Source: Hormiphora californensis
Taxonomy: Eukaryota; Animalia; Ctenophora
Reading direction: 5' to 3'
Assembly (NCBI GenBank): GCA_020137815.1
Contig: CM035353.1
Span: 6,200,001 to 6,264,000 of the forward strand
Length of the DNA: 64,000 nt
Shown in pieces: positions 48,701 through 63,700 of the stretch. A model generated the notes under the pieces. The model was not told the origin of the DNA, searched no databases, and saw only the letters and a program-made list of their open reading frames with translations. Position 1 is the stretch's first letter, and each line of letters begins with the position of its first letter. The translations under genes were made by a program, and so were the position numbers.

Positions 48701-51700
48701 GCACAGCCGAGCTGCAGTTGGTGAATATTTACCTTGCTCAACCCTGTCTCACCCCCTCCCCCTCCGCCCGTTTGAAAAATAAGAAGGGCTCGAAACAAAA
48801 CAAGGTGGATGTTGCTGTGCCTGTTATATACTATTTCTGTGCAGGTGCGGTGTCGGTGGTAAAGTTCTACCTGGCCTCATTTCGCCACACCTACTACACG
48901 TACAATAGTGGGGACTGCACCAATAACCCGGCAAACTGCAACGTAGGCGCTACAACAGGTGGGAAATATGAGTGGTATACTAGTCAGTTGGTGACTATTA
49001 TTTGTACTATTATACTGGAGTTGTTACCCGGGTATGACCATTATGTAGTATGAATTATCCTAAGAGACAAGAATTGTTTATTTTTTTTCTCAACATCCAT
49101 AATTTATACCCAGGTCTTCAAATCCGATCTGTGGTAATGAAGAACAACGCCGCATCAAAAGCATCAAAACGGCAGGCATTTTGGCTATCATCCAGCTTTG
49201 AAGATAGCAACATTGAAACGAAACTGTTGTACCAGGACCCCAATAGAAAAGTCTGGGAGATGGATACTGCTTACCGGTATAGTGTGATTGTAAATGTGTG
49301 TGTGTGTGTGGGATGTAGCGTGACGTGGCCTGCCCTATTAAAGTACCCTATGTCAACGGCTTACTTGGTTAGCTGTACTCATGTCGGAAGAAATTTTAGT
49401 CTGAATGCCGAATATGGTACAGATTACACGCTGCCAAAATAAGATTCTCTCAGAATATAATTTTAGCCGATATAAAAACCAATCTCCAAGTCCAAATGGC
49501 TAAAAAATCCAAACTCACCAGCTGTACCTGTCTGGCGGCGCCAGACCCCATGTATGATACAGCCCTGTACTGTACGATAATTGACCTTGATAGTTTGATA
49601 TCATGGTTTATTATACCAGATAAATGAGATCTGTAGAAGAAGACAATCCATAAAAGTACTCACATAATATTGATCACTTATACGAGTTGTGCACTGTTCA
49701 GCTTTACACTTGACCATGCAGCTGGTGGGCGTTTATTGTGCTATTATTTCTCCAATATTTTCAGACTTCATGTCTTGCTATTATATAGAGAAATCGTAGC
49801 AATAGAAAGATAGCAATTAGCAGTTTTTCGATTTCTTCTATTTCTATCAATTTCATATATTATATCACTAGTTATTTCAACGCGTTTTGTGGTTTTATGC
49901 AATGCACTTTGAGTTTTGAAATTGGTTATGACGGATCGAAATCTGTTACTCAACTCCGCTTTACGTAGTTCTCTATTTCAACATCTTGTCTTCAATAGGA
50001 CGTGATCGTTAATTCTGTTGCAATAAAGACATTCATAGCAGTGCTTTTAGCGATCGTAATTTTGGCACTAAAGAAATTCTGTGGTCGCTGTGGGTTAATT
50101 TCATCGTGCGATGTCATTCATTAGAACTCTCCCCTTTTTCTTCGCAGAGAGAAAGAAAGGGTCGAACAAGGCATTAGAACTTTCTCTATCTCTCTCTATA
50201 TCTCTGTCTCTGTCTCTCTCTCTCTCTCTCTCTCTCTCTCTCTCTCTCTCTCTCTATATCTCTATCTCTCTCTCTCTCTCTCTCTCTCTCTTTCTCTCTC
50301 TTTCTCTCTAGTCTACCAACATAAGATCTGATCGAATGCTTTTTAACTAAATATCATCGCTTTATCCAGAACATTTCGAGGATTTGAGAGTCAGTTGATC
50401 CCTCGACTGTTGTAACAAGATGTGATCTTAGGCGACGAGGACATACCGGTATAGAGTTTCACCACTGTTTCTTCTCTCTCTCTCTCTCTCTCCTCTCTCT
50501 CTCTCTCTCTCTCTCTCTCTCTCTCTCTCTCTCTCTCTCTCTCTCTCTCTCTCTCTCTCTCTCTTCTCTCTCTCTCTCTCACTCTCTCTCTCCCTCTCTC
50601 TCGCCATCCCTACCCAAATCAGTCTTCACCACTAAGATTTGTATAGACGGGTTAGCACTTATGGGGTAGTTTAATTTAATCCCTAGGATAGGTATATAAT
50701 AATATGTAGCAAGCGTGCCGCCCTTGATTTTCCTAGTTCAGACTTGTGTGAGAATTAGTTTGTTCTTTTGTCCTGGCCTAATACCTGTAGGAGAACATTG
50801 GGATCTCCGCCCGCGGTACAATTCAGTGGGTTTGGGATATTGCTTGAATAAATGCAGCTAGGGCATTGGAAAGAAACCTTCTCTGTATTATACTGGACAT
50901 TTATCGACACGCGGTTATTTTGCTTTTGCTCATTCCTTCAGTACGTTCTACATAGCGCAGGGAAAGCTTTTGTTTGATCATTATCCTAATAAGTACACAA
51001 CAATTTAATTACTGACTTTTCAATAATATTAACGTATTGAGATTCATCAAATACATGCTACAGTCGGATCCCGATTTAGGGGCCCCCGATTTAGTGGAAC
51101 CCCGATTTAGGGACAGGATTTTTTCCCCCGATATAGGAAATTAACCTTATTTGACCCCGATTTAGTGGACACCCCGATTTAGTGGACAAGAGCCTTTCCC
51201 CCGAGGGTGTCCCTAAATCGGGGTCCGACTGTAGTTTACATACACAGGGGAATACTCAAACATTTTATAATCTAGTTCATAAATCTTATTTAGTTGTTTC
51301 TGCTGATCTTCATTCAGCTGCCCAATATGTTCATCTACCTCCGTCCCCTTCACTTCCTTTTTTCCTGAGGAGTTGTGTTTTCCCATAAAATACTCCAGGT
51401 ATTCTGATAGATTAAGGCGTTTCAACAAATACGGCACTTCCTCCTCTTCATTTTCGAGTTTCACAACCATGTCAATTTCATTCTGACAAGTATCTGTGAA
51501 CTGTGATGCCGGCATCCAGTGAGGGTTTGTACCCTTGTTGTCGTGTTTGCTCCGTGCGAAAAGGATCCATTTGACAAACTCACGAAATGTCGGTGGAGCG
51601 AGATATGGGTTTGTATTGTTCTCATCTGGTTCAAATTTACCTGTTACCCACTTGTTCAGCTCATCATTGTACCCTCGGTGTAACGTGTTATCAGCAACTT

Positions 51701-60700: not shown

Positions 60701-63700
60701 GGCTGTGCTCTCTCTTTCTCTCTCTCTCTCTATCTCTATCTCTATCTTTCTCTCACTCGCCCCGGTGGTTCAAATTGCCCCGGTTTACCCTAATGAAATT
60801 AGCCTTGAACTTCGAACCTCAGTGTGTGTCACGCGGTTAAGATCTCAACACGCACCACCAACTTCAGTGTGTCTCCTCCGCACCGAGGGTTAATAACTCG
60901 AGCGAAAGCTAGAGAACAACATTTAACAGTTGTGGATTGAGTAAACTAACTATTTGCAGGTCCAAACTAATTCCCTGAGCTCTCAACTTGTTGTCTACGC
61001 TATATTTTATATTGGGTGTATTACAAATCCATTTCTGTACGTGGTATCTTCCAAAGCAATCAGGGCAAGCTTGCGTCGTATCACCAAAAAACGACGAACA
61101 AACAAGAACTTCAAGTACGTATGATACAGCTGAGAAACAGTCGAATAACTATTATAGTGCTGATACTACTGTAATCATGCTATAACATTAACCCTTGTTC
61201 CGTTCAGTAGGTCCCCAGCGGGCCACCAAAGGAGGGTGTTTTCTGATGTGGGTTATACTACGAGACGAGCTGAAGATGATGGGGTTGTGGCCCTTCCTCT
61301 GGGATCTTCCCAGCCTCCTGCTAATACGGAAGTCAGAAACATGACTCTATGAAGGGGAGAGAGGGAAAGAGATAGACACAGAGATATATAGACACAGAGA
61401 TAGGAAAGATGATGGTTTATGACAAGATGTGTTGTGTCTTGAATTTGTTAAACATAAAATATAATTGTATTCACTCCACTGTTCTATTTGCCTAGCTAAA
61501 CTCTGTTTCGCGTGCACCAAATGTAAAGGAAGGTTAGGACATAGGGTAGCGACTGGCTAGTTGAAATGGCGTCTAATTTGAAACACCACCTCTATAATAA
61601 CAGGCCAGCAGGTGCACCAGATTTGGATTTTTAGACATCTGTGGGCTAGTCAGAACTCAAGCCATTTCAAATAGCCAGTCGCTACCCTACCTAACAATGT
61701 TCTCTATCGGTTACCTGTTTGTATAATTTTCAGCATTCGAGTTTGGATTATCTTCTTCCTTTTATTTATTTTGTTGGTGACGCAGTCACCTCTACATCAG
61801 CCGCGTGCAGCTAAACGAAGCCTTTCCTAGATCCTCAATGTCTGTCCTGCTCGTTATACCAGACCCTTTCAAAATGTTTCACTTTATTAATAGTGTAGCT
61901 CCCAAAATTTGGTCTAAATTATTCCAAAGAGTATCTTGTATTGAAGAATGTGTGTGATTAACAAATTAACAAATATAATTATGGTACAATGGTGTAAAAA
62001 CTAAAAATGCTCCGAAATCCCGGTGGAGCCGGGTCGAAACCCCTTACTGTGCTACGGTGTACCTTATAATATGGGTGTGATAGTTATACAAATTATATAT
62101 AACCCCTTGGGGTGGCGGCCTGAATATGAATATGTGTAGTCACTTCACAATAACTAAATCTGTAATATAAAACTATCCCACAGGTGGAGGGTGTTACATC
62201 ATCCCAGTACTGGATCAATACAAATGTCCCTGCACGTGGTGAACGACGGTGGTACAGTCGATACAATAGTGGACACTGACACACTGTATGATAACACATG
62301 TCGAGGTGGCAGAATAGGTAAATTAAGTGATATATATTGGCTTGATAACTATAGGGTGCTATCGAGATTGTTAGCACACACTCGTTGATTGAGTGAGACG
62401 GATAGTGTCGGTGCAAGTCACTGAGGTCAAGCAAGGGACCGTATTGAGCGCTATTATCTTTGCTTGGCCGCATCCAATAGTCGGACTGCCTCATGGATAG
62501 AGAAATAGCCACATGTACATGCTAAAAAATAGGGTGAGAGATATATCAGTGGTAGAATAATTTATTAGTAAACGTGAGATTGTTATGAATTATGGTAATT
62601 GTTAACTATAGGGCGAGAGAAAGTCTCAGGTTCCAGTTAAATAGGTTAATGCAACATATTAGTTAGTTACTAATATTATCCAGCTAATATTATCCAGCTA
62701 ATAACGTGTTGTCAGGTGTGTTCTCTCAGCGACAGTGGGGTGCAATATTCGCTAATGTCAGAGCCTACTGTCTCTCTCCCCTCAACTATGCTGCAAAGTT
62801 TGAGGGCAACACGAGAATTCGTATTGGTGGTCTCATGGGAGAGTTGGGGGTCACACGGTCTTTCCAGATAAGGTAAGGGGGACTCCCGAGAGGGAGAGAG
62901 TTTACCACCTGTCCACTCCTTTATGGGCAATCTTGCACAGATGTCTATGTCACCAAGGGGGGAGGGGGTTTGATGTTTTCAGTCCACACGACACAAAGTA
63001 ATTGAATTTACAGTCGGTTAGAATAGCATGACTCCATTACTAATGTCAGTTCATTTGGTTAATACCACACCTTTTATTCAGTGCCTGGTTCAGAATATCA
63101 GACTACCCCATAACGGATGGGATATATCCCATACTTTGTCGAGACACAAGCACCAGCCAACCTCTCTGTCTTTTCATCAACTCTGGTAAGCTTGCCAGAG
63201 CAATATTAAGCACTTTAATTCATGATCCTTTCAAATAAGAACGGAGTGGTTGCTCAAACTTTCCTTGTTCCCTTGATCACAATGAATTTATTCTGACCCT
63301 AATATATCGCCTCCGGATTTACCGTACAGAACCCTGTCGCCCAAGCATCCCGGTAAATCGGGATACTAACTTTGTTCCTCCCAACTAGGTGGCGAGGTGG
63401 TAGCTAGTTATGGTTCACAGACGATAGTAACAGATCTAACTGTTACAAAAAATACATGGACATTAGCGGTGAGTAGAATATTCTACCTACCCGATCTAGT
63501 TTAATGCCGAAACACACATCCCTCTAGCTCGACCCGTTTTTAGAACATAACAAGGGACACCCTCTATGTACGAAGATCTCCCTCCCCAGTTTTAACTAAA
63601 ACATACTGAATTCATATTTCATATCTATAGGTCCTGCAGTACGATATGTAATGGTACTAATCCTGAATTCATATATAGGTCCTACAGTACGATATGCAGC

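What the first reader, a model, noticed from the sequence alone, without database searches (positions are those of the whole stretch)
49277..62183. Three-level 'Russian doll' gene nesting: kringle gene inside a GPCR inside one intron of mega-thrombospondin
Seen: the TSP C-terminal domain is split mid-motif (..TAYR at 49276, phase 2, resumes WRVLHHP at 62184), defining a 12.9-kb intron. That intron holds an antisense sulfotransferase and a complete 7-exon GPCR on the SAME strand. GPCR intron 5 (59539-60959) holds an antisense spliced kringle gene. Known (from memory): nested and doubly nested intronic genes were reported as abundant in the Hormiphora californensis genome. Inference: the spliceosome must ignore seven good sense-strand exons in the host pre-mRNA, or the GPCR mRNA is released from the host transcript.
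Basis: partly seen in the sequence, partly recalled or inferred. Interest (0 to 1): 0.85.

Follow-up and report, generated by a model that had tools for sequence, protein, structure and literature searches.

The report
Gene inside gene inside gene
One 12.9-kb gap in the coding sequence of a giant matrix-protein gene, likely from a comb jelly, holds a sulfotransferase gene and a receptor gene that itself holds a small kringle gene; this layout is real but is already reported hundreds of times in one comb-jelly genome, and the only fresh lead is that the innermost gene sits between inverted repeats and likely arrived inside a jumping DNA element.

Summary
The nesting is in the sequence. A 30-exon host model reads open across 49276/62184 and aligns without a gap there to Nematostella mega-thrombospondin. 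The gap holds an antisense sulfotransferase, a same-strand seven-exon GPCR and, in GPCR intron 5, an antisense spliced kringle gene. As written in the window the GPCR is broken by two extra bases in exon 4; all 4 of 4 public DNA contigs spanning both places lack them, so they are likely assembly errors. No RNA was laid, so no splice is shown. The class is known: 484 doubly nested genes, many same-strand nested genes and 176 nested genes with transposons on both sides are reported for Hormiphora (PMC8527503). Added here: the kringle lies between 77-nt inverted arms, and a second nested gene of the same host lies between its own 63-nt arms, which points to carriage by DNA transposons (no target-site duplication found). 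GPCR splice sites score as high as the host's, so how the host skips them stays open; an own promoter with separate expression is the likeliest reading. Interest 0.3.

The parts
30220..63856 (+). Host mega-thrombospondin gene (signal-like N-terminus, LRRs, cadherin-like, EGF, type 3 repeats, TSP_C, second lectin-like domain); runs off the window end
   Evidence: 30 exons 35147-63856 give 1207 aa, 0 stops, 31% identical to P0005 over 1261 columns, E 2e-144. Region 33751-34966 needs at least 11 frame switches, not tested on reads.
49114..49276 (+). Host exon before the large intron (TSP_C profile 94-137)
49277..62183 (+). 12,907-nt phase-2 GT-AG host intron (inferred)
   Evidence: median of the 30 host introns is about 210 nt
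62184..62317 (+). Host exon after the large intron (TSP_C profile 139-177)
51216..52874 (-). Nested single-coding-exon sulfotransferase (Sulfotransfer_2) with N-terminal hydrophobic anchor and a 35-copy 18-nt stalk repeat (52155-52785)
57433..57433 (+). Strong acceptor-like site 663 nt before the GPCR ATG: candidate 5' UTR or trans-splice acceptor
   Evidence: 11.6 bits, rank 2 of 795 AG sites in the intron; untested
58096..61352 (+). Nested rhodopsin-like GPCR, exons 58096-58147, 58223-58366, 58518-58653, 58820-59117, 59420-59538, 60960-61114, 61208-61352; 348 aa when the two window-only bases are left out
   Evidence: 7tm_1 E 0.0027 for exon 3 only; P0015 72% over 99 columns across exons 6-7
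58920..59074 (+). Two window-only extra bases in GPCR exon 4 (near 58920-58921 and 59073-59074), likely assembly errors
59539..60959 (+). GPCR intron 5, 1421 nt (the other five GPCR introns are 75-302 nt)
59623..59699 (.). Left inverted arm around the kringle gene
   Evidence: 84% over 77 nt to 60808-60879, E 2e-15; score 93 against a maximum of 26 in 300 shuffles
60808..60879 (.). Right inverted arm around the kringle gene
59795..59829 (.). End of a very high-depth repeat; direct copy at 60759-60793 (97%, 35 nt), so the kringle also lies between two direct repeats
60046..60482 (-). Doubly nested kringle gene: hydrophobic leader plus one kringle in two exons (60482-60301, 60211-60084 or -60046)
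59645..59913 (-). Likely third kringle exon: hydrophobic stretch, then runs into the repeat and stops inside intron 5
   Evidence: donor 9.3 bits, acceptor 8.4 bits (host medians 7.1 and 4.9); predicted only
39508..40596 (-). Second nested sulfotransferase, in host intron 39298-42347
   Evidence: Sulfotransfer_3 E 2.6e-10
45475..46146 (-). Nested ORF of unknown family, in host intron 45009-47352, between its own inverted arms 45116-45178 and 46937-46999
   Evidence: (86% over 63 nt, E 3e-13); no Pfam or PDB match

Best explanation
A mega-thrombospondin coding sequence is interrupted by a 12.9-kb GT-AG gap that holds an antisense sulfotransferase and a same-strand seven-exon GPCR, whose fifth intron holds an antisense kringle gene between inverted arms; the inner genes are likely separate transcription units with their own starts, and the kringle likely arrived later inside a DNA-transposon-like unit. 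Shown: the layout, the open frames, and that the GPCR's two shifts are absent from public DNA. Inferred: (1) the GPCR and the sulfotransferase, which lie head to head about 5 kb apart, are made from promoters inside the intron rather than cut out of the host RNA; (2) host and GPCR are mostly made in different cells or at different times, the host polymerase reads through because the GPCR's 3' end lacks a canonical poly(A) hexamer, and most wrong splices are out of frame (4 of 6 GPCR acceptors) and would be degraded; (3) the antisense genes pose no splice-site problem; (4) a 1.26-kb arm-kringle-arm unit entered an ordinary ~160-nt GPCR intron, and in the GPCR pre-mRNA the arms are predicted to pair and shorten the intron back to about that size.
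For: Host frame and homology across the gap. The three largest host introns (2.3, 3.05, 12.9 kb) each hold a gene, 26 of 30 are 108-454 nt and the fourth largest is a tandem array. GPCR intact in public DNA: 4 of 4 spanning contigs, X1 piece of 308 letters over 310 bases and X5 with the first deletion. P0015 joins exons 6 and 7 in one frame at 72% identity. No AATAAA or ATTAAA on the + strand between the GPCR stop (61352) and 62183. Acceptor phases. Arms; intron 5 minus the unit = 164 nt; predicted duplex -109.7 kcal/mol. Left arm joined to GPCR exon 5 in two S1 contigs and right arm joined to exon 6 in an S2 contig (table 8). Several contigs per run cover kringle positions 60468, 60092 and 59896 (up to 7, 4 and 6), a hint of related copies. 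Literature: nested pairs diverge in expression and same-strand nesting with introns is under-represented but present in Drosophila (PMC5174743, passages); 176 Hormiphora nested genes have transposons on both sides (PMC8527503, section 38).
Against: No RNA evidence for any junction, promoter or expression pattern. GPCR splice sites are as strong as the host's: host acceptor ranks 11 of 795 and host donor 25 of 777 sites in the intron, two GPCR acceptors score higher (matrix from only 27 host introns). No convincing pairing between the ends of the large intron (best duplex -37.5 against -30.0 to -36.5 in 12 shuffles; alignment test p 0.24 and 0.045 on a 15-nt match). Two of six GPCR acceptors (exons 4, 7) and the exon 6 donor are in phase with the host, so in-frame chimeras are possible. 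No target-site duplication at either arm pair. Only 2 of 5 nested genes have such arms. A third inverted pair (55792/62356, 174 nt) looks like two independent insertions of a high-depth repeat, so chance pairs do occur here. No listed contig piece links the kringle exons to either arm, or bridges 62184 by 31 letters (tables cut). The host itself is frameshifted in the window at 33.75-34.97 kb, untested.
Confidence: 0.6

Rival explanations
1. The GPCR mRNA is released from the host pre-mRNA: a spliced leader is trans-spliced to an acceptor in the intron and the RNA is polyadenylated after exon 7, so one host promoter gives either mega-TSP or GPCR.
For: Acceptor-like site at 57433, rank 2 of 795. 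A leader was on 56% of Hormiphora Iso-Seq reads (PMC8527503, section 37 passage). Acceptor-like sites also lie 7-81 nt before the ATG of both sulfotransferases and 17 nt before the host ATG.
Against: Leader trans-splicing does not need a host promoter; the same acceptors occur before antisense genes, which cannot come from the host RNA. Four donor-like sites lie between 57433 and the ATG, so it may be a plain 5' UTR exon. No RNA data.
Confidence: 0.2
2. The 50-62 kb block, or the kringle block within it, was put here by misassembly.
Against: Both host flanks are clean splice sites with consecutive profile positions. All 30 depth bins of 57150-63500 are covered in X1 and X6; pieces join exon 5 to the left arm, the right arm to exon 6, and 61741 to 62207. 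Two other host introns hold genes in the same way.
Confidence: 0.08
3. The outer or middle gene is dead (host or GPCR a pseudogene in this haplotype), so no splicing conflict exists.
For: GPCR has two shifts and the host at least 11 frame switches in 33.75-34.97 kb as written.
Against: GPCR shifts are absent from 4 of 4 spanning contigs. The host keeps 30 open exons over 1207 codons and an open 1194-codon stretch; the shifts cluster in one 1.2-kb patch, as expected of an unpolished stretch. Mega-TSP is reported as the only thrombospondin of ctenophores, with a 2549-aa partial transcript listed for Hormiphora (PMC6526912, passages).
Confidence: 0.06
4. The arms around the kringle are two independent insertions of a small repeat family (or an old element later filled by gap repair), not the ends of a unit that moved the gene.
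For: No target-site duplication; arms only 84% alike; the kringle also lies between 35-nt direct repeats, which would fit recombination or repair. Most animal Pack-TIRs are single-copy products of gap filling (PMC8277862, passages).
Against: Arms start 84 and 80 nt from the intron ends and face each other; each arm occurs once in the 64 kb; a second nested gene has an unrelated pair in the same geometry. This rival concerns only the origin step and is compatible with the rest of the best explanation.
Confidence: 0.4

Closest known systems
Doubly nested intronic genes of Hormiphora californensis (PMC8527503, section 38 read whole)
   Same: Gene within a nested gene; several nested genes per host; parallel and antisense nesting; transposons on both sides of 176 nested genes.
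   Different: The paper's text does not name this locus or describe facing inverted arms around one gene; its supplementary list could not be read and may hold this locus.
'Russian doll-like' nested genes of Drosophila (PMC5174743, passages)
   Same: Three levels; same-strand nested genes with introns occur (28.5% of same-strand cases in D. melanogaster by the paper's 71.5% intronless).
   Different: A handful of cases there; a seven-exon same-strand middle gene is of the under-represented type.
Mega-thrombospondin (PMC6526912, abstract and passages; P0005 Nematostella)
   Same: N-terminal LRRs, cadherin-like centre, EGF, type 3 repeats, TSP_C and a further lectin-like domain; about 2800 codons within the window.
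   Different: The paper has no word on introns (0 occurrences).
Animal Pack-TIRs, e.g. Drosophila Ssk-FB4 (PMC8277862, abstract and passages)
   Same: Non-transposon gene sequence between inverted arms; near-whole spliced gene as cargo.
   Different: No target-site duplication, consensus element or parent gene identified here; cargo about 1 kb against a median of 224 bp; ctenophores are not mentioned in that paper's main text (0 occurrences).
Host/nested pairs in mammals (bioRxiv 10.1101/2023.05.02.539096, passages; PMC3192792, abstract)
   Same: Same-orientation nesting in the largest intron; nested transcription can cause premature host polyadenylation or exonisation.
   Different: Not tested here; this genome has short introns (median about 210 nt in the host) and likely leader trans-splicing.

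Membership tests
Doubly nested intronic gene | Middle gene's coding exons lie wholly in one intron of the host | tested here: met
   58096-61352 within 49277-62183; UTR ends unknown
Doubly nested intronic gene | Inner gene lies wholly in one intron of the middle gene | tested here: met
   Both kringle models (two or three exons) start and stop within 59539-60959
Doubly nested intronic gene | Transcripts show the host junction and separate inner mRNAs | not testable with these tools
   No RNA holder listed
Doubly nested intronic gene | Physical continuity of the DNA | tested here: inconclusive
Mega-thrombospondin | N-terminal LRRs | tested here: met
   LRR_8 E 1e-72; P0005 hit E 4e-48
Mega-thrombospondin | EGF, type 3 repeats, TSP_C and a further lectin-like domain, colinear with a known member | tested here: met
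   blastp to P0005 residues 1561-2703, E 2e-144
Mega-thrombospondin | One unbroken frame of more than 2300 aa | tested here: inconclusive
   Frame switches at 33.75-34.97 kb not tested on reads; 3' end outside the window
Class A (rhodopsin-like) GPCR | Pfam 7tm_1 above the curated cut-off | tested here: inconclusive
   1 of 6 exon pieces matched, E 0.0027, below the cut-off; the whole protein was not scanned
Class A (rhodopsin-like) GPCR | Seven helices with the usual motifs (motifs recalled: LAxxD, DRY-like, W in helix 4, P in helix 5, WxP, NPxxY) | tested here: met
   All are visible in the 348-aa reading; hydropathy finds 6 of 7 segments above 1.3, helix 2 below
Kringle protein | Pfam Kringle above cut-off, both halves | tested here: met
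   37.9 and 47.7 bits against 34.3; profile 1-32 and 42-79
Pack-TIR | Inverted arms enclosing non-transposon gene sequence | tested here: met
Pack-TIR | Target-site duplication | tested here: not met
   None of 5-11 nt at the kringle arms; only an uninformative 5-nt match at the 45-kb pair; 2-4 nt duplications were not scanned
Pack-TIR | Arms match a transposon family; parent gene and other copies exist | tested here: inconclusive
   Raised depth and several contigs at arms and kringle positions; the tool says depth is no copy number; no genome held
Intron-generating transposon (Introner-like; recalled) | Inverted repeats reach the splice sites | tested here: not met
   Outer 80 nt show no complementarity beyond chance, p 0.34

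The most novel reading that the evidence does not exclude
Comb-jelly nested genes are in part delivered whole, introns included, by gene-carrying DNA transposons, and the insertions are tolerated in a short-intron genome because the element's inverted arms pair in the host pre-mRNA and fold the cargo out (1421 nt to about 164 nt; 2344 nt to about 460 nt). Two unrelated arm pairs around two nested genes of one host would be the first local sign of this route to Russian-doll genes.
Probability: 0.25. Interest if true: 0.62.

Novelty: new member of a known kind. Interest (0 to 1): 0.3.

Why it matters
As a layout it is one more case of a class counted in hundreds in a comb-jelly genome. It is a compact test locus for two open points named in that literature: how a host skips a spliced same-strand gene whose sites are as strong as its own, and how nested genes get there. 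It also warns annotators: the window's frameshifts would drop the middle gene and hide the nesting.

Tried and rejected
No whole genome is held, so copy number, parent gene and synteny were not searched. No RNA holder listed; the one run guessed as RNA laid 0 contigs, which is no evidence either way. Bridging the exon-4 shifts by splicing: a 52-nt intron fixes only the first; a 134-nt intron opens the frame but removes the loop before helix 5; rejected. GPCR as pseudogene: rejected for the sampled haplotypes. Intron 5 as an intron-generating element: rejected; a loose alignment suggested it. Pairing of the large intron's ends: not supported. The 174-nt pair 55792/62356 as a splicing clamp: it encloses a host exon and its right arm is skipped in S2 contigs. 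An X5 joint skipping 59751-60858 could be a kringle-less allele or a shorter family member; side 29 letters, not used. Homologue searches: no ctenophore mega-TSP among 14 hits; none for kringle exon 1 among longer proteins; the representative search gave 664 hits, the best 150 listed all generic kringle proteins at 37-60% identity; GPCR exon 6 gave 1 hit. Atlas search with P0015: two GPCR-family rows at 0.90-0.91 with low shared counts, a lead only; the Atlas could not read the 45-kb ORF. Rfam: 0 matches in 49-63 kb. Earlier findings near this place or like intron 5: none; one search gave only unrelated prokaryotic cases. First automatic host chain failed; boundaries were set by hand among nearby AG/GT sites.
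Full report
Question. Is there a kringle gene inside a GPCR inside one intron of a mega-thrombospondin, how does it work, and is it new? No whole genome was held, so the work rests on the window, public contigs, protein searches and papers. The species was not determined here; earlier unchecked notes on this genome call it a comb jelly.

Host. The window shows GT at 49277 and AG at 62182-62183. A model of 30 exons from 35147 to 63856, with boundaries chosen by hand among nearby AG and GT/GC sites, reads 1207 codons with no stop and aligns to Nematostella mega-thrombospondin P0005 at 31% over 1261 columns, E 2e-144; the junction at residue 990 falls in an ungapped block. 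Pfam TSP_C positions 94-137 and 139-177 lie on the two sides. An LRR exon starts at 30220. Of 30 host introns 26 are 108-454 nt, one is a tandem array, and the three largest (2344, 3050, 12,907 nt) each hold a gene. Against this: 33751-34966 needs at least 11 frame switches as written.

Inner genes. The antisense sulfotransferase is one open frame (Sulfotransfer_2, E 2.4e-26). The kringle has a hydrophobic leader and two exons above Pfam's cut-off; a strong donor at 60084 and acceptor at 59913 predict a third exon with a hydrophobic stretch that runs into a repeat and stops inside intron 5. The GPCR has seven GT-AG exons, but joined as written they give 10 stops: exon 4 uses three frames. In one search, 4 of 4 contigs that span both places (X2, X3, X4 of one sample, X6 of another study) lack one base at 58920-58921 and one at 59073-59074; the X1 piece has 308 letters over 310 bases and X5 shows the first deletion (table cut). 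Without these two bases the frame is open for 348 aa with class A motifs (motif names recalled) and 6 of 7 hydropathy peaks. An unnamed 92-aa protein, P0015, matches exons 6 and 7 in one frame at 72%. So the GPCR is most likely intact and the window carries consensus errors. Pfam support for the family is weak because only single exons were scanned (1 of 6 pieces, E 0.0027).

Continuity. In one search contig pieces join exon 5 to the left part of intron 5 (59508-59713, two X1 contigs), the right part to exon 6 (60763-61129, X5) and 61741 to 62207 (X6; 24 letters into the host exon, under the tool's bar of 31). Misassembly is unlikely, not excluded.

How the host skips the GPCR. With a matrix from 27 of the 30 host introns, GPCR acceptors score 4.6-11.8 and donors 5.2-9.1 bits against 7.8 and 6.3 for the host's own sites, which rank 11 of 795 and 25 of 777. 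Site strength does not explain skipping, and no pairing of the intron ends stands out. The host donor is in phase with 2 of 6 GPCR acceptors (exons 4 and 7), out of phase with 4; the exon 6 donor is in phase with the host acceptor. No AATAAA or ATTAAA follows the GPCR stop on its strand within the intron. The GPCR and the sulfotransferase lie head to head. I infer own promoters inside the intron, largely separate expression and decay of most wrong splices; this follows the pattern in Drosophila (PMC5174743, passages) and mammals (bioRxiv 10.1101/2023.05.02.539096, passages; PMC3192792, abstract) and is not shown here. Release by leader trans-splicing is the main rival: a strong acceptor-like site lies at 57433 and leaders were on 56% of Hormiphora long reads (PMC8527503, passage).

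How the kringle got there. It lies between inverted arms 59623-59699 and 60808-60879 (84%, E 2e-15; score 93 against at most 26 in 300 shuffles), 84 and 80 nt from the intron ends, and between 35-nt direct repeats. Removing the arm-to-arm unit leaves 164 nt, like the other GPCR introns (75-302 nt). Arms and kringle positions are covered by several contigs per run, a hint of related copies only. A second nested ORF (45475-46146) lies between its own unrelated arms (63 nt, 86%, E 3e-13). Three other nested genes have none; 5 of 31 short control introns reached p under 0.05 in the same test, with scores of at most 32. No target-site duplication was found, so I do not file it as a Pack-TIR; it looks like one. 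The arms are predicted to pair as RNA (-109.7 and -97.6 kcal/mol); any long inverted repeat would, so this is no evidence of function. The repeat does not reach the splice sites, so intron 5 is not an intron-generating element.

What is known. PMC8527503 (section 38 read whole; other passages) reports 2357 nested genes in 1654 hosts, 484 doubly nested, 1109 with a transposon on one side at least and 176 on both, and many parallel to the host. Its supplements could not be read and may list this locus. A glass sponge has 2432 nested genes (PMC10282587, passages). Mega-TSP is described in PMC6526912 (abstract and passages), animal Pack-TIRs in PMC8277862 (passages). Nine paper searches (listings) showed no paper on this locus or on arm pairing that helps a host splice round a nested gene; the library lacks most subscription papers.

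Verdict. The transposon-cargo and fold-out idea is the only new lead (probability about 0.25). Interest 0.3.

Noticed in passing
window 33751-34966 (+): At least 11 frame switches in 1.2 kb of the host's long first exon, still recognisably homologous to mega-TSP; likely an unpolished patch of the assembly.
   Followed up: partly
window 45116-46999: Nested antisense ORF of unknown family between its own 63-nt inverted arms; no Pfam or PDB match.
   Followed up: partly
window 39508-40596 (-): Second intronless sulfotransferase nested in another intron of the same host, of a different Pfam family from the first.
   Followed up: partly
window 52155-52785 (-): 35 copies of an 18-nt unit encode a six-residue acidic stalk repeat in the sulfotransferase; all three frames on that strand are open through the array.
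   Followed up: no
window 35947-37136 and 44321-44663 (+); 20406-21087 (-): Tandem arrays that begin at exon ends and repeat the splice donor or acceptor in each unit, offering many alternative sites.
   Followed up: no
window 55792-55965 and 62356-62529: 174-nt, 97% inverted pair of a high-depth repeat enclosing the GPCR and one host exon; right arm skipped in sample S2 contigs.
   Followed up: partly
window 60505-60574: A 68-nt stretch just upstream of the kringle ATG is skipped in contigs of X1, X5 and X6.
   Followed up: no
P0015 against window 60960-61352: The relative's frame runs from exon 6 into exon 7 with no intron 6, while its first residues look like translated acceptor sequence; possibly an intron gain or loss.
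   Followed up: no
window 14848-15014, 41029-41108, 41695-41769, 42199-42295, 47856-48009, 51059-51236: Many copies of one small inverted-repeat element family in introns.
   Followed up: no
window 25106-25495 and 54948-55023: A 390-nt near-palindrome and a perfect 76-nt palindrome.
   Followed up: no
window 1-23237 (-) and 25741-28400 (-): A spliced LDL-receptor-like gene and a second spliced gene lie upstream on the minus strand, the latter head to head with the host (names from the look of the translations).
   Followed up: no
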